From: an uncultured Nitrososphaeria archaeon
GTDB lineage: Archaea > Thermoproteota > Nitrososphaeria > Geothermarchaeales > JDFR-13
Direction: 5' to 3'
Assembly (NCBI GenBank): GCA_964530465.1
Contig: CAZHBK010000001.1
Coordinates: 1 to 28,028, forward strand
Length of the DNA stretch: 28,028 nt
Of this stretch, positions 9,292 to 13,920 are shown piece after piece. The stretch's first letter is position 1. The number at the start of each line of letters is the position of its first letter. Position numbers and translations under genes: made by a program. The notes beneath the pieces were generated by a model. That model saw only the letters and a program-made list of their open reading frames with translations. It searched no databases and had not been told where the DNA came from.

Positions 9292-9999
9292 CTACTTACA
9301 TGCCACTATCATTATTAACGAGCCTTTAAATAAGCTATATAAATATGTAGTCCTGAAGATCTTTGAGAATATTTTGAATAATATCTTATTTTCAGGTATT
9401 CTAGTAATTGTATCTGCCAATTTAACCCATGGATTCTTAGCACTACCTGTATGTATTGATGATATTATTGGTACTGCATATTTAATGTAAAGTTTGAGGA
9501 GGAGTTGAATTACGGGATTATCGGGCTTACCTATATCTATATCAATGAAACAACCTCCTTTTCTAATTAATCTACTAAGCATGTATACTGCTTTAAGAAG
9601 GTTTATCGAATCTCTAATACTATATGAGGAATATATTGAATCTATAGAGCTAACCCTAATTGGCGGATTTTCAAATAATCCAACTACAATATCAAATCTA
9701 TTGCTTAGCTCCTTAAGTTTTGTAATGCATCTTAAACTAAGTATGAAGCTTGCATCTAGACATATCACATAGCTCCTACTTATGCTTAGTAGTATCTTAG
9801 CTGTTGAATCTCCAGGCCCAGATCCAGCATCTAATATATTTACGCCTATAATATACTTTACCCCAATCTCTCTAAGTTTATCTGCTAATCCGAGACTTAC
9901 AAGATTATTAACCTTACTATATAATTCTCCAGTTCTTATTATAGAGTTTATGATATCTATCCAATCTTCAAAATTCCTACACTTTCTCTGATTCGGCAA
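9292..9999 (-). CDS. UbiE/MenG-like class I SAM-dependent methyltransferase
   Basis: Motifs LYSKVNNLVSLG, ILDAGSGPG, YSIRD (f.lRd-like) and DIGKPDNP. The TTG start overlaps the htpX stop. Confidence 0.75.
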   Translation of the reverse strand: MPNQRKCRNFEDWIDIINSIIRTGELYSKVNNLVSLGLADKLREIGVKYIIGVNILDAGSGPGDSTAKILLSISRSYVICLDASFILSLRCITKLKELSNRFDIVVGLFENPPIRVSSIDSIYSSYSIRDSINLLKAVYMLSRLIRKGGCFIDIDIGKPDNPVIQLLLKLYIKYAVPIISSIHTGSAKNPWVKLADTITRIPENKILFKIFSKIFRTTYLYSLFKGSLIMIVACK

Positions 10000-10966
10000 T
10001 TTCTCTAAGCCTCTCTAATCTCTTAACGATATTCGGATGAGTGCTTAATAACTCCATTACCCTATCCCATAGAGTAATTCTTCTTTTAGATATGATTTCC
10101 TCAGCTAATTTATAGTCATTTCTAAATGATGCAATTAATCCTGTATCTTTTAACGCTACGTCGGGATCAGCAATGAGTAATGCTTTGAAAGCACCAATAC
10201 TACCTAGGTCGCCTCGCCTAATAATCCTACTAGTTGAGTATGTTATTCTCGCTAATGCCGCCATTAATTTCCTGGCTCCATTATCAACATTACATGCTGA
10301 TTCGTAATCGGCATAATACTCTCTCAATCTACTGAATGCAAGTAGTATTAACTGTAATATGAAGTATATTATTAGCGATATGAAACCTATTGCTGCAGCT
10401 ACTGTAGCTGGATTTTCTTCATCACTACTCTCTATGAATGGGCTAAAGTATAACTGGTATAATGCTATTCTACTAATTATGTAAAATACTGATGGTAATA
10501 CGGACATAAACATCAATGCTTGTACATCCCTATGTTTAATATGACCTAATTCATGTCCTAATACAGCTTCAATCTCATCTAGATTTAGGGTATATAGTAA
10601 TCCTCTTGTAATAGCTACCTTCTTCTTACCAAATATACTTCCATATGCAAATGCATTAGGGATGTCTACTTCGGCGAGCATAACTTCAGGTTTTTTAATA
10701 CCTAGCTTACTACTTAATTTAGAAACGATATCATGTATTTCAGGTGCTTCACGATATGATAGAGGTCTAACCTTATATACTGCTTCAATAATCTTAGGTG
10801 CTGTAATCCACTGGATTAAATTGAATACTAATGCTATTGCTAATCCAATATATAGGTTTAAACCGAAGAAGTCTGTCACCAGTATTATCGCTAGTGTAGA
10901 TATAGCAATGAATATAGCTAGTGTAGTGATCATTGAAAGATATAACTTAAATCTATATAAGCTCAT
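9977..10966 (-). CDS. htpX: Zinc metalloprotease HtpX (peptidase M48)
   Basis: Motifs PNAFA, AVLGHELGHIKHRD (HExxH), SRLREYYAD and STHP...R, with N-terminal TM helices. Confidence 0.93.
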   Translation of the reverse strand: MSLYRFKLYLSMITTLAIFIAISTLAIILVTDFFGLNLYIGLAIALVFNLIQWITAPKIIEAVYKVRPLSYREAPEIHDIVSKLSSKLGIKKPEVMLAEVDIPNAFAYGSIFGKKKVAITRGLLYTLNLDEIEAVLGHELGHIKHRDVQALMFMSVLPSVFYIISRIALYQLYFSPFIESSDEENPATVAAAIGFISLIIYFILQLILLAFSRLREYYADYESACNVDNGARKLMAALARITYSTSRIIRRGDLGSIGAFKALLIADPDVALKDTGLIASFRNDYKLAEEIISKRRITLWDRVMELLSTHPNIVKRLERLREIAESEKV

Positions 10967-11128: not shown

Positions 11129-12124
11129 ATGAGTAATTACTGTATAAAGTCTATAAATTTAACTAAGATATATCCAGGTGGTATTAAAGCAGTTAATGGC
11201 GTTAGCTTTAAAGTTGATTATGGAGAGATATATGGATTTTTAGGTCCTAATGGTGCCGGTAAGACAACTACATTAGGTATGTTAATTACGGTTATAAAAC
11301 CTACTAGCGGAGATGCATATATAGCAGGATATAATATTCATAGAGATGCCAGTAAGATTAGGGAGAAGATTGGAGTTATGTTTCAAGACCCAACTATCGA
11401 TAGAGATCTAACTGGTTGGGAGAACCTATACGTACATGGGTTGGCATATGGAATTAATAGGAATACTTTAATTAAGAGAATTGATGAATTACTCGAGTTT
11501 GTCGGATTATCTGAATTTGCAAATACTCAAGTTAGAAGGTATAGTGGCGGTATGATTAGAAGGCTCGAGATCGCTAGAGCCCTCCTACATAAACCTGAAG
11601 TATTATTCTTAGATGAACCTACATTAGGATTAGATCCTCAGAGTAGAGCTAAGATGTGGGATGTTATAAGAGACTTAAATAAAGAGGGTGTTACAATATT
11701 CCTAACGACACATTATCTTGAGGAAGCCGATAGATTATGTGATAGAATTGCAATTATAGACTACGGTAGGATCGTATGTGAGGGTAAACCTAGTGAGCTT
11801 AAGAATATGATTGGAGGCGATGTAATCTACGTAAAGATATCTAAGTCAGATAGCAATACAAATGAATTTATCAATACTCTTAGTAGGATTGGTAAGGTTA
11901 AATTAATCGGAGATCAAGTTTCCATCGTAGTTAAGAATGCACCTAAGACATTACCTAAGATCTTCGAGTTAGCAGAAGAATACAGCATAAGAATTAGCGA
12001 GATTAGATATACGCAGCCCTCATTAGATGATGTCTTCTTATATGTAACTGGAAGGAGGCTTAGAGATACTGAGGTTTCGTCCCTCGAATTTATTAGAATG
12101 AGGAGGATTAGAAGGATGAGGTGA
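11129..12124 (+). CDS. ABC-2 type exporter ATP-binding subunit (DrrA-like)
   Basis: Walker A GPNGAGKTT, signature YSGGM, Walker B LFLDEPT and H-loop TTHY. Confidence 0.95.
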   Translation: MSNYCIKSINLTKIYPGGIKAVNGVSFKVDYGEIYGFLGPNGAGKTTTLGMLITVIKPTSGDAYIAGYNIHRDASKIREKIGVMFQDPTIDRDLTGWENLYVHGLAYGINRNTLIKRIDELLEFVGLSEFANTQVRRYSGGMIRRLEIARALLHKPEVLFLDEPTLGLDPQSRAKMWDVIRDLNKEGVTIFLTTHYLEEADRLCDRIAIIDYGRIVCEGKPSELKNMIGGDVIYVKISKSDSNTNEFINTLSRIGKVKLIGDQVSIVVKNAPKTLPKIFELAEEYSIRISEIRYTQPSLDDVFLYVTGRRLRDTEVSSLEFIRMRRIRRMR

Positions 12125-12130
12125 TTTAAT

Positions 12131-12916
12131 ATGAGTAATAGAGATCTACTCGCATTTTATGCACTAGTATATAGGCATATTAAAAGGTTTATAAGGTATA
12201 AATCGAGAATAGTTACAAGCTTCATACAGCCAATATTATGGTTTGTATTCTTTGGTATTGGATGGAGTTATGCATTTAATATAAGAGGTTTAAATCTTAA
12301 ATTCCTATTCGGTGGTGTAGACTATCTTAAATTCTTACTTCCAGGCGTTGTTATGATGACTGTATTTACGTCTAGCTTTATGAGTGGCTTAAGTGTACTA
12401 TGGGATAGAGAATTTGGATTTCTAAAGGAGTTGCTAGTTTCTCCAGCTAGTAGAATCGCTATACTATGCGGTAGGGTTTTAGGTGATTCGATAATTGTAA
12501 CTCTCCAAGGCGTTATAATGCTAGCAATACTGTCAGTATTCGTAGGTAGTATAAATCTATATGGTATTATAATAACGGTGTTAATATCATTCATAACAGC
12601 ACTAATATTCGTAGCATTAGGTATTACAATAGCATCATATATCAAGAGTATGGAAGCATTCCATATGATTACAGGATTTATAACACTTCCAATGCTCTTC
12701 TTAAGCGGTGCATTCTATCCAATAGATCCATTACCTGAATGGATGAAGATACTTGCATTAATAGACCCACTTACATATTCAGTAGACTTAGCTAGAAACG
12801 TGCTAATAGGAGTATCATCATTAAACTACATGATCGACTGCATAGGGATTATAATCTCACTAGTAGTATTCATATCACTCTCAGTATTCTCATTCAAGAG
12901 GACTTATATTGCATAG
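12131..12916 (+). CDS. ABC-2 type exporter permease (DrrB-like)
   Basis: Six TM segments with WDREFGFLKELLVSPASR, FLSGAFYPI..LP.W and DPLTY.VD; RBS GGTGA upstream. Confidence 0.93.
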   Translation: MSNRDLLAFYALVYRHIKRFIRYKSRIVTSFIQPILWFVFFGIGWSYAFNIRGLNLKFLFGGVDYLKFLLPGVVMMTVFTSSFMSGLSVLWDREFGFLKELLVSPASRIAILCGRVLGDSIIVTLQGVIMLAILSVFVGSINLYGIIITVLISFITALIFVALGITIASYIKSMEAFHMITGFITLPMLFLSGAFYPIDPLPEWMKILALIDPLTYSVDLARNVLIGVSSLNYMIDCIGIIISLVVFISLSVFSFKRTYIA

Positions 12917-12917
12917 T

Positions 12918-12995
12918 GAGAGGCCGGGCGAGAAGAACGCCGCACCACAGCACTTATCCCAAATCGGGATATCCTATAGTCTCACCCGGCCCCTC
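12918..12995 (-). ncRNA. Unassigned GC-rich structured small RNA
   Basis: A 16-bp terminal stem (GAGGGGCCGGGUGAGA/UCUCGCCCGGCCUCUC) whose two imperfections are G-U pairs on the minus strand only. It also has an inner hairpin UAUCCC-GAUUU-GGGAUA and a TATA box 23-30 nt upstream. Confidence 0.65.
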
Positions 12996-13017
12996 AAGCA
13001 AATTAAATTATTTAAGA

Positions 13018-13025
13018 TATTTAAA
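13018..13025 (-). promoter_or_regulatory. TATA box (TTTAAATA) for the putative small RNA
   Basis: Consensus archaeal TATA at -30..-23 from the first G of the RNA stem, with a purine run (GGAAA) upstream. Confidence 0.5.
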
Positions 13026-13170
13026 TAAATTTCCAAAGCATTACAGTAGTTATATTCAATATTCTATAGTAAATTCAAGAAATCTCAATATAGGGTCAAA
13101 TATAATAGATGCATGCTACTATGTATTTACTATGTTTTTTTCACCACTCTAGTATAAAATATATTATTAC

Positions 13171-13920
13171 ATGATTAGAATCGTCAGCTTCGACTTTTGG
13201 TTTACATTAGTCTGGGAGGATTTAGAAGGATTAAAATATTACCAAGATAGAAGAATTGAGGTATTATATAATGCCTTACGCAATTATACAGATGTATCCC
13301 TTGATGAAGTTAGAGTATTCTATAAAAGTACAGGAGGCATTAGAATGCTGGTCTCGAATAAAGAGCTAATTAAATTTATCTTTAGAATGGCTGGTTTAAC
13401 ACCTACTGATGATATATTAGATGACATTGTTAAAGAGTATGAGGAAGTTGTAGATAACTGGAAACCACATGTCAATGAAGAAGCATATGGTGTATTAGAA
13501 GGGCTTAAGAAATTAGGTTATAAAATTGCTATAATCTCGAATACATCGTTCTCAGAGAGAAGTCTATGGTTTATCATTAGGAATGTTGGATTTGATAAGT
13601 ATATTGATGGGGTAATTGCATCTTCTGAAGTTGGCTATATAAAGCCGATGAGGGAAATCTTCAGAGAGTTATTTAATAAATTTAACGTAAGTCCTAAAGA
13701 GGTTATCCATATTGGTGATTCATACTTCTCAGACGTTATAGGTGCATTTAATGCAGGAGCATACGGGGTGTTATATAATGGATTGTGGAGATATTATATT
13801 GATGAAGAAGACTATAAAAATGCTATATCAGTAAATTACAATAATAGATGCATCGTATTAAGCAATTTAAATGACATATTTAACGTACTAGATAGGATAG
13901 AGAGTAAGGGTAAGCTTTAA
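13171..13920 (+). CDS. HAD-superfamily hydrolase
   Basis: Motif I SFDFWFTL, motif II IISNT, motif III KP and motif IV HIGDSYFSDVIGA. Confidence 0.9.
   Translation: MIRIVSFDFWFTLVWEDLEGLKYYQDRRIEVLYNALRNYTDVSLDEVRVFYKSTGGIRMLVSNKELIKFIFRMAGLTPTDDILDDIVKEYEEVVDNWKPHVNEEAYGVLEGLKKLGYKIAIISNTSFSERSLWFIIRNVGFDKYIDGVIASSEVGYIKPMREIFRELFNKFNVSPKEVIHIGDSYFSDVIGAFNAGAYGVLYNGLWRYYIDEEDYKNAISVNYNNRCIVLSNLNDIFNVLDRIESKGKL

What the first reader, a model, noticed from the sequence alone, without database searches (positions are those of the whole stretch)
12918..13025. Orphan GC-rich structured RNA with its own promoter, convergent on the ABC exporter
A 78-nt GC island starts 2 nt after the permease stop. 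Its terminal stem has two mismatches that become G-U pairs only on the minus strand, a sign of selection at the RNA level. A TTTAAATA box sits at the expected distance. Inside are a 6-bp hairpin, a possible ACUAUAG/CUGUGGU helix with an imperfect K-turn-like GA junction, and a one-sided bulge of about 10 nt (GCGGCGUUCU) that could act as a guide. It is not a tRNA cloverleaf and has no C/D boxes or 3' ACA. Candidates are a non-canonical pseudouridylation guide, an orphan guide RNA, or a new sRNA class.
Basis: partly seen in the sequence, partly recalled or inferred. Interest (0 to 1): 0.6.

Follow-up and report, generated by a model that had tools for sequence, protein, structure and literature searches.

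The report
Orphan heat-stable hairpin RNA candidate
An 80-base GC-rich hairpin that pairs perfectly only on the minus strand and sits behind an archaeal promoter box is real, but it occurs in only this one vent archaeon, at the edge of a newly acquired exporter operon, so it is most likely a species-specific antisense small RNA and not a pseudouridylation guide.

Summary
Window 12918-12995 is a 78-nt island of 60% GC between flanks of 35% and 21% GC, starting 2 nt after the permease stop. On the minus strand it folds into 29 uninterrupted pairs (17 + 6 + 6 bp) with four G-U pairs. On the plus strand these become A-C mismatches (-47.2 versus -35.1 kcal/mol at 37 C; -13.2 versus -5.4 at 85 C). 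A palindromic TATA box, like those of this genome's tRNA genes, predicts a start at the stem base.

The guide-RNA reading is not supported. The element fails every H/ACA criterion, has no C/D boxes, is not a tRNA and matches nothing in Rfam, and its bulge has no significant target.

It is single-copy and identical in five vent or sediment assemblies. It was not found in 150 genomes of its class or in the metagenome, viral, plasmid and phage collections searched.

New context: in four relatives from two genera, HtpX and HAD are adjacent. Here the ABC exporter operon plus the hairpin form a roughly 2-kb lineage-specific insertion, with the hairpin at its 3' edge.

Best reading (about 0.4): a species-specific small RNA transcribed convergently, antisense to the exporter's 3' end. 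Rivals are a cassette-boundary relic, a 3'-UTR hairpin and a trans-acting RNA. No expression data exist. Interest is modest.

The parts
12916..12997 (-). Whole hairpin RNA candidate (82 nt including the closing U-A pair)
   Evidence: MFE -47.2 kcal/mol, z -5.4. Plus strand -35.1. Still -13.2 at 85 C, against -5.4 for the plus strand. Single copy in the genome.
12980..12995 (-). 5' strand of the lower stem (RNA 1-16)
   Evidence: Pairs with 12918-12933. Contains G4 and U12 of two G-U pairs.
12918..12933 (-). 3' strand of the lower stem (RNA 63-78). It ends 2 nt from the permease stop codon.
12934..12944 (-). One-sided 11-nt 3' bulge UGCGGCGUUCU, the proposed 'guide'
   Evidence: Unpaired in the 37 C fold and partly paired in a second hairpin at 75 C and above. 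No perfect complement in the genome. Best tRNA duplex is not significant, p about 0.07.
12945..12979 (-). Upper part: 6-bp helix CUAUAG/CUGUGG with two G-U pairs, GA/AGUG internal loop, and 6-bp apical hairpin with loop GAUUU
   Evidence: A low-depth strain variant at 12973 (RNA G23 to A) lies in the internal loop.
13018..13027 (.). Palindromic TATA box TATTTAAATA. Read on the minus strand as TTTAAATA it spans 13025-13018.
   Evidence: The box starts 30 nt upstream of G1, which predicts a start at about 12994-12997 if TATA boxes are centred near -27 (established knowledge). The same NTTAAAWN box type lies upstream of 18 of 28 tRNA genes in this genome.
13030..13034 (-). Purine-rich BRE-like GGAAA upstream of the box on the minus strand
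   Evidence: Read from the sequence. Weak evidence only, because the plus-strand side also has a purine-rich stretch.
13009..13016 (-). Second TATA-like box CTTAAATA, 9 nt downstream of the first
   Evidence: If this box were used, the start would fall about 10 nt inside the 5' stem strand.
11129..12916 (+). DrrA/DrrB-type ABC-2 exporter operon (ATPase 11129-12124, permease 12131-12916). Together with the hairpin it forms the lineage-specific inserted block.
   Evidence: TIGR01188 368.6 bits and TIGR01247 268.7 bits. Absent between HtpX and HAD in four relatives.
9977..10966 (-). HtpX protease gene, left neighbour of the inserted block
   Evidence: Adjacent to HAD in relatives.
13171..13920 (+). 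HAD-family hydrolase gene, right neighbour, transcribed divergently from the hairpin

Best explanation
The element is a small, very heat-stable hairpin RNA gene on the minus strand that is specific to this species. It is probably transcribed from the palindromic TATA box 22 nt upstream of the stem, convergently with the DrrAB-type ABC exporter operon.

No T-tract follows it, so transcription would either run on antisense into the permease gene or be trimmed back to the hairpin. The whole RNA is complementary to the exporter mRNA's 3' UTR. The most likely action is therefore in cis:
- pairing with, or colliding with, exporter transcripts to control their level;
- stopping read-through from the newly inserted operon into the HAD gene downstream.

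Shown here: the structure, its strand asymmetry and heat stability, the promoter-like box, single copy, and the position at the 3' edge of a lineage-specific 2-kb insertion.

Inferred, not shown: that it is transcribed, where the RNA ends, and what it does.
For: - Strand: all four wobble pairs are G-U on the minus strand and A-C on the plus strand, and the minus strand has no mismatch in 29 pairs. At 85 C the minus-strand fold keeps -13.2 kcal/mol and the plus-strand fold -5.4. The rRNA-bearing contigs are 60-66% GC in a 35% GC genome, which points to a thermophile.
- Promoter: the TTTAAATA box starts at -30 from the stem base. The same box type lies upstream of 18 of 28 tRNA genes.
- Composition: GC-rich islands outside genes in this AT-rich genome are mostly RNA genes. 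40 of 90 such islands are ARAGORN tRNAs, and others are 5S, RNase P, rRNA ends and C/D-like RNAs.
- Rarity: very few hairpins in the genome have stems this long.
- No terminator: there is no A5 run on the plus strand in 12600-12916, hence no T-tract for the minus transcript. This fits an antisense transcript better than a discrete gene.
- Context: the exporter operon plus hairpin is inserted between HtpX and HAD, which are adjacent in four relatives of two genera.
- Precedent: RNA-257 of Sulfolobus solfataricus pairs with the 3' UTR of a transporter mRNA (PMC3674436).
Against: - No RNA evidence of any kind.
- No relative of the element exists, so there is no covariation test. The strain copies are identical.
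- The TATA box is a perfect palindrome and could fire towards HAD instead.
- A second box 9 nt further on would start transcription inside the stem.
- Four G-U pairs on one strand is only about 1 in 8 under neutral decay of a palindrome.
- A simple antisense RNA does not obviously need a nested 29-bp fold.
- Homologous exporter operons elsewhere carry no such hairpin.
Confidence: 0.4

Rival explanations
1. Relic or recombination site at the boundary of an acquired gene cassette. The hairpin would be a strand-specific folded DNA site, or a stranded guide hairpin of a decayed mobile element, that came in with the exporter operon. It need not be a working RNA gene.
For: - It lies exactly at the 3' edge of a roughly 2-kb lineage-specific insertion, 2 nt after the last stop codon.
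- Its size of 78-80 nt and its imperfect palindrome, which folds better on the strand opposite the gene, recall integron attC sites (established knowledge).
- G-T wobble also favours one strand in single-stranded DNA.
- The same genome carries TasR/IS110-like elements whose guide hairpins have 17-21-bp GC-rich lower stems. These are the only other stems this long in the genome.
- The exporter is rare in the family, so it was probably acquired.
Against: - No RYYYAAC/GTTRRRY core at the stem base on either strand.
- No recombinase or integrase in the window.
- No second copy in the genome and no copy in the metagenome, viral, plasmid or phage searches.
- No direct or inverted repeat of 9 nt or more joins the two junctions. 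The weak inverted matches are at chance level.
- No sequence similarity to the Tas-type hairpins, and their shared AGGUU and GGUUU motifs are absent here.
- Another insertion in the window, the radical SAM gene at 25054-26013, has no hairpin.
Confidence: 0.2
2. Plus-strand 3'-UTR hairpin of the exporter mRNA, acting as a 3'-end stabiliser or a barrier to read-through into HAD. On this view the G-U asymmetry is chance.
For: - It starts 2 nt after the operon's last stop.
- The plus strand still folds at -35.1 kcal/mol, z -5.0.
- The next gene is co-oriented, so a barrier would be useful.
Against: - Four A-C mismatches and no G-U pair on this strand.
- Only -5.4 kcal/mol at 85 C.
- No U-tract directly after the stem. 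Archaeal termination relies on U-tracts rather than hairpins (established knowledge).
- Such hairpins are not a general feature of gene ends in this genome, nor of homologous operons.
Confidence: 0.12
3. Trans-acting small RNA or RNP component, for example an atypical modification guide that uses the 11-nt bulge.
For: - A stable minus-strand fold with a promoter-like box.
- A single-stranded 11-nt segment presented on a rigid stem.
- Atypical H/ACA-like guides exist in Crenarchaea (PMC4652768).
Against: [quoted passage not shown]
- The bulge has no perfect complement in the genome, and its best tRNA duplex is reached by 7% of shuffles.
- It was not found in any of 13 family and 150 class genomes, whereas guides for rRNA or tRNA modification are usually conserved.
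- The bulge may be paired at growth temperature.
Confidence: 0.1
4. A chance palindrome or a decaying insertion with no function.
For: - Species-restricted, with no covariation data.
- No known family.
Against: - z -5.4, with none of 200 shuffles as stable.
- 29 pairs without a mismatch on one strand.
- 60% GC inside 21-35% GC flanks.
- Unchanged in assemblies from five samples.
Confidence: 0.08

Closest known systems
RNA-257 antisense RNAs of Sulfolobus solfataricus (Maertens et al. 2013, PMC3674436)
   Same: [quoted passage not shown] Here the candidate RNA is fully complementary to the exporter's 3' UTR.
   Different: RNA-257 is transposon-derived, occurs as four paralogues and is shown to be expressed. 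This element is single-copy, encoded in cis, a nested GC-rich hairpin, and its expression is untested.
GC-island non-coding RNA genes of AT-rich hyperthermophiles (Hgc RNAs; Klein, Misulovin and Eddy 2002; cited from my own knowledge)
   Same: A GC-rich island outside genes in an AT-rich thermophile genome, with its own promoter-like box and a stable fold.
   Different: The Hgc RNAs were confirmed by Northern blot and are conserved among relatives, and several turned out to be H/ACA guides. This one has no relative and no known motif.
Archaeal H/ACA and Pyrobaculum H/ACA-like guide RNAs (PMC4652768)
   Same: A hairpin of about 70-80 nt with an unpaired stretch between a lower and an upper helix.
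   Different: The lower stem is 17 bp rather than 0-9. There is no ACA. The unpaired stretch is on one side only. There is no K-turn or K-loop, no significant target and no conservation.
Integron attC recombination sites, including integrons reported in Archaea (Ghaly et al. 2022; cited from my own knowledge)
   Same: An imperfect palindrome of 57-141 nt directly after the stop codon of an acquired gene block, folding better on the strand opposite the gene, with unpaired bases on one side.
   Different: No R''/R' core sequence, no integrase, no cassette array, no other copy, and a two-gene block rather than a single promoterless ORF.
Guide hairpins of the TasR/IS110-like elements in the same genome (window 22634-22737; contigs C51 and C82)
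   Same: A 17-21-bp GC-rich closing stem, unpaired internal segments of about 10 nt, and a small apical hairpin with a 5-nt loop. These and the present element have the longest stems in the genome.
   Different: No adjacent Tas-like gene. None of the motifs those three RNAs share. Only one unpaired segment rather than two. No sequence similarity.

Membership tests
Archaeal H/ACA guide RNA | Lower stem of 7-9 bp (5-6 bp in the Pyrobaculum canonical ones) | tested here: not met
   The lower stem is 16-17 bp. Criterion from PMC4652768.
Archaeal H/ACA guide RNA | ACA box 14-16 nt 3' of the pair that closes the pocket | tested here: not met
   No ACA follows the stem; the 3' tail reads ACUAUGC. The 3' pocket strand plus the lower stem is 28 nt.
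Archaeal H/ACA guide RNA | Two-sided pseudouridylation pocket | tested here: not met
   The 5' strand has no unpaired nucleotide between the lower and second helices. Only the 3' strand bulges, by 11 nt.
Archaeal H/ACA guide RNA | K-turn or K-loop (tandem G-A/A-G) 8-11 bp above the pocket | tested here: not met
   The GA/AGUG loop allows one G-A pair (A24 with G45), but the second position would be G-C. There is no GA...GA in the apical loop (by inspection).
Archaeal H/ACA guide RNA | Guide complementary to an rRNA or tRNA site | tested here: inconclusive
   The best tRNA duplex, -18.4 kcal/mol to tRNA-Val, is reached by 7% of shuffled bulges. The rRNA is fragmentary in this assembly.
C/D box sRNA | C (RUGAUGA) and D (CUGA) boxes near the ends | tested here: not met
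   Neither motif is present on either strand of 12916-12997. No Rfam C/D hit over the element.
tRNA (including intron-bearing or split forms) | Cloverleaf with a T-loop, or a BHB splice motif | tested here: not met
   ARAGORN finds none, and the Rfam tRNA model finds none even at E up to 10. The two bulges lie at the same junction, not 4 bp apart as in a BHB motif.
Any Rfam 15 family | Score at or above the family's gathering threshold | tested here: not met
   No hit at gathering. At E up to 10 there are only generic miRNA-precursor hairpins, 11-15 bits, all on the minus strand.
MITE or other repeated palindromic element | Several copies per genome, with terminal inverted repeats and a target-site duplication | tested here: not met
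   One copy in the 1.61-Mb assembly, which is 87.9% complete. Contigs of four runs assemble through it. No flanking duplication.
Integron attC site | R''/R' core (RYYYAAC ... GTTRRRY) at the stem base, and an integrase or cassette array nearby | tested here: not met
   The stem base reads GAGGGG.../...CCUCUC on the minus strand. No tyrosine recombinase in the window. The attC covariance model itself was not available.
Guide hairpin of TasR/IS110-like elements | Lies directly 3' of a Tas-like gene, with shared AGGUU and GGUUU motifs and two unpaired guide segments | tested here: not met
   No such gene next to it. The motifs are absent and there is only one unpaired segment.
Cis-antisense small RNA | Transcribed from the strand opposite a gene's 3' end, overlapping its transcript | not testable with these tools
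   The promoter-like box and strand asymmetry fit, but no RNA run holds the locus.
GC-island ncRNA gene of AT-rich thermophiles | GC-rich, non-coding, stably folded island, conserved in relatives and expressed | tested here: inconclusive
   Composition and fold are met. Conservation was not found. Expression is not testable.

The most novel reading that the evidence does not exclude
The hairpin could be a new kind of strand-specific folded site or stand-alone guide RNA that marks, or mediated, the capture of a gene cassette (the exporter operon) in an archaeal chromosome. That would be an archaeal counterpart of attC-type or RNA-guided insertion that owes nothing to the known families.
Probability: 0.08. 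Interest if true: 0.65.

Novelty: new member of a known kind. Interest (0 to 1): 0.3.

Why it matters
If it is transcribed, this would be one more lineage-specific small RNA of a barely sampled hydrothermal-vent archaeon. It would also be a neat case of a convergent antisense RNA arising at the edge of a freshly acquired operon, which bears on how foreign operons are insulated from their new neighbours. It does not open a long-standing question. With no relatives and no RNA data, nothing beyond its existence and context can be established. The practical lesson is that a GC island, a TATA box and G-U asymmetry are enough to call a candidate RNA, but not to call it a guide RNA.

Tried and rejected
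- **tRNA, split tRNA or BHB substrate:** rejected (and inspection).
- **H/ACA, H/ACA-like and C/D RNAs:** rejected on structure.
- **Hammerhead or other small ribozyme:** considered because of the three-way junction predicted at high temperature. The junction strands do not fit the hammerhead core, and no Rfam ribozyme hits.
- **MITE:** single copy.
- **Homologues by BLAST:** in 60 relatives there were only short chance matches. One of them (86% over 29 nt, E 0.026) falls in the intron of a tRNA-Leu(UAA) gene of a same-family genome (L006). The paired regions do not correspond, and that E-value is expected by chance over 60 genomes.
- **Single-sequence covariance model R1:** nothing in 13 family or 150 class genomes.
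- **A 20-nt degenerate pattern:** 7 metagenome and 5 genome hits were all unrelated, and there were none in viral contigs.
- **Plasmid and phage collections:** no match.
- **Synteny through the permease:** the nearest homologue is 57% identical. The operons looked at have 59-68-nt spacers or a convergent gene downstream and no such hairpin.
- **Synteny through HAD:** gave the insertion result.
- **Strain variation:** the locus is identical in L053 and in runs X1-X4, apart from one depth-2 change in the internal loop. No covariation test is therefore possible.
- **Sequencing runs:** no RNA holder was listed for this locus, so expression could not be examined.
- **Bulge targets:** no perfect complement in the genome. 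rRNA and tRNA matches are at chance level.
- **Paralogous hairpins in the genome:** C14:2962-3037, C29:4995-5077, C35 and C186 are unrelated in sequence and context.
- **Repeats joining the two insertion junctions:** none of 9 nt or more. The 12-nt and 29-nt inverted matches are at chance level for AT-rich DNA.
- **Plus-strand ORF 12916-13152 (78 aa):** no Pfam hit, and TAG is followed in frame by TGA, so there is no read-through extension.
- **Earlier notes of this scan:** no look-alike sequence.

Full report
**What is there**

Window 12918-12995 is a 78-nt island of 60.3% GC. Its flanks are 35.3% GC (the 3' end of the permease gene) and 21.1% GC (the spacer before the HAD gene). It begins 2 nt after the TAG stop of a DrrB-type ABC-2 permease.

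Folded as RNA, the minus strand gives -47.2 kcal/mol, with z = -5.4 and none of 200 dinucleotide shuffles as stable. The plus strand gives -35.1.

The minus-strand fold, numbered so that RNA position n is window 12996-n, has these parts:
- A 16-17-bp lower stem.
- A 6-bp helix, CUAUAG/CUGUGG.
- A GA/AGUG internal loop.
- A 6-bp apical hairpin with loop GAUUU.
- A one-sided 11-nt 3' bulge, UGCGGCGUUCU.

None of the 29 pairs is a mismatch. Four are G-U (G4-U75, U12-G67, U18-G50, U20-G48), and all four become A-C on the plus strand.

Two qualifications apply. First, the GA junction does not fit a K-turn: only one sheared G-A pair can be drawn. Second, at 75 C and above the predicted fold becomes a three-way junction in which GCGGCG of the 'bulge' pairs with UGCUGU. 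At 85 C the minus strand keeps -13.2 kcal/mol and the plus strand only -5.4.

**The organism**

The window belongs to a 1.61-Mb, 35% GC, 87.9%-complete assembly from a hydrothermal-vent metagenome.
- It is an archaeon: it has PorA_Arch and many intron-bearing tRNA genes.
- Its rRNA-bearing contigs are 60-66% GC, as expected for a thermophile.
- The best named PorA relatives are 'Geothermarchaeota' and Thermoprotei MAGs.
- The lineage is thinly sampled. The nearest homologue of the permease among 5.8 billion proteins is 57% identical. The HAD search found only one hit, a 98%-identical protein from another assembly of the same species.

**Promoter**

On the minus strand TTTAAATA lies at 13025-13018, leaving 22 nt before G1. 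It is part of the perfect palindrome TATTTAAATA (13018-13027).
- Boxes of the same type (NTTAAAWN, often preceded by AAA) lie upstream of 18 of 28 tRNA genes of this genome.
- TATA boxes are centred near -27 (established knowledge), so the predicted start is the base of the stem.
- Because the box is palindromic, it gives no direction by itself. GGAAA upstream on the minus side is BRE-like, but weakly so.
- A second box, CTTAAATA at 13016-13009, would place the start inside the stem.
- No T-tract follows the hairpin on the minus strand for at least 300 nt.

**What it is not**

- ARAGORN finds no tRNA in the window.
- Rfam 15 has no hit at gathering thresholds. At E up to 10 only generic miRNA-precursor hairpins appear, all on the minus strand.
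- It fails the published H/ACA criteria (PMC4652768): the lower stem is too long, there is no ACA, the pocket is one-sided and there is no K-turn. It has no C/D boxes.
- The bulge has no perfect complement anywhere in the assembly. Its best tRNA duplex, 10 bp with tRNA-Val, is matched or beaten by 7% of shuffled bulges.
- It is not a MITE. There is one copy in the genome, and contigs from several runs assemble straight through it.

**Conservation**

I found none outside the species.
- BLAST in 60 relatives gave only short chance matches.
- A covariance model built from the sequence and its fold found only the element itself in 13 same-family and 150 same-class genomes.
- A degenerate 20-mer returned only unrelated GC-rich DNA from the metagenome and genome collections, and nothing from viral contigs.
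- The plasmid and phage collections gave nothing.
- Within the species, the locus is identical in a further assembly and in contigs of four runs from four studies. The one exception is a depth-2 change in the internal loop.

No covariation test is therefore possible, and no RNA run holds the locus.

**New context: an insertion**

In a 1.58-Mb genome of the same family (GCA_002011085.2, L095) the gene order matches the window, running ACT-domain gene, UbiE-type methyltransferase, HtpX, HAD, 1509-aa S8 protease, por operon, nitroreductase and GGR. The difference is that HtpX and HAD are direct, divergent neighbours there.

The same holds in three more genomes, so four genomes of two genera in all. 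Their HtpX-HAD spacers are 101-176 nt, AT-rich and contain no GC hairpin.

No family member has the exporter next to HAD. Only one has an orthologue-level permease at all, at 47% identity. Homologous exporter operons elsewhere carry no comparable hairpin downstream.

The exporter operon plus the hairpin (about 11129-12996) is therefore most simply a gain in this lineage, with the hairpin forming its 3' edge. I found no repeats linking the two junctions and no recombinase in the window.

**How unusual the hairpin is within the genome**

Only about nine loci in the AT-rich contigs have a contiguous GC-rich stem of at least 13 bp enclosing at most 80 nt. The longest belong to the guide hairpins of the TasR/IS110-like elements (window 22634-22737; C82:198-299) and to this element.

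Those guide hairpins share motifs and an adjacent gene that this element lacks, and there is no sequence similarity between them. The other long-stem hairpins (C14, C29) are unrelated to it.

**Weighing the readings**

The strand asymmetry, the stability at high temperature and the well-placed box favour a minus-strand RNA. The missing terminator, and the full complementarity to the exporter's 3' UTR, make a cis-antisense or insulating role the most economical function. A hyperthermophile precedent exists in RNA-257 of Sulfolobus (PMC3674436). I give this about 0.4.

The position at the edge of an acquired block keeps a cassette-boundary site or mobile-element relic alive at about 0.2. Strand-specific G-T pairing would also be expected in a site that folds as single-stranded DNA.

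The remaining readings get the rest:
- plus-strand 3'-UTR hairpin, 0.12;
- trans-acting RNA or guide, 0.1;
- chance, 0.08.

**Verdict**

This is a real, well-described and unusual hairpin, probably an RNA on the minus strand. It is an orphan without relatives, expression data or a recognisable motif. The guide-RNA interpretation should be dropped. Interest is modest (0.3).

Noticed in passing
genome contigs C51:531-962 with hairpin about 966-1065; C82:1-186 with hairpin 198-299; window 22634-22737: The TasR/IS110-like gene of window 22740-23177 has two more copies in the genome, 65% and 71% identical. Each is followed by a hairpin with a 17-21-bp lower stem of different sequence and the shared motifs AGGUU and GGUUU. 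The stems thus show compensatory variation within one genome.
   Followed up: partly
genome contigs C51:17-154 and C7:22361-22448: A GC-rich structured element occurs twice. It contains GCUACCCCUAAGGGGUAGC-type palindromes around a long CCCCC...GGGGG hairpin, and about -69 kcal/mol is predicted for the C51 copy. One copy lies upstream of the Tas-like gene on C51. No Rfam hit at E up to 0.01.
   Followed up: no
genome contig C29:4995-5077: An 83-nt hairpin with a 14-bp GC-rich stem. Its 5' strand contains a GGAGG Shine-Dalgarno-like sequence 8 nt before an ATG, and its 3' strand lies inside the coding region of a 400-aa ORF. This looks like a translation-control structure that hides the ribosome-binding site.
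   Followed up: no
genome contig C14:2962-3037: Another orphan 76-nt GC-rich hairpin with a 13-bp closing stem, more stable on the plus strand. It lies in a 339-nt spacer between divergent genes. No Rfam hit.
   Followed up: no
genome contig C22:about 7000-7400: About 400 nt of very stable GC-rich structure (segments of -55 to -81 kcal/mol) outside long ORFs, with no Rfam match at E up to 0.01. It could be a divergent SRP RNA or an unknown large RNA.
   Followed up: no
genome contig C59:4755-4944 (locus L072): An intron-bearing tRNA gene that ARAGORN missed but the Rfam tRNA model finds (43 bits). The tRNA count of 31 for this assembly is therefore an underestimate.
   Followed up: partly
window 25054-26013: A radical-SAM gene lies between the geranylgeranyl reductase and the S9-type peptidase genes. 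These two are adjacent in the relative GCA_002011085.2 (L095), so this is a second small lineage-specific insertion in the window. It has no flanking hairpin.
   Followed up: partly
locus L006:about 1465-1580 (genome G013, same family): The intron of a tRNA-Leu(UAA) gene resembles the apical part of the hairpin (86% over 29 nt, E 0.026). I judged this to be chance, because the paired regions do not correspond.
   Followed up: partly
window 12916-12997, minus strand: At 75 C and above, the predicted fold switches from a bulged hairpin to a three-way junction with a second small hairpin, UGCUGU/GCGGCG. The single-stranded 'guide' may therefore not exist at growth temperature.
   Followed up: partly
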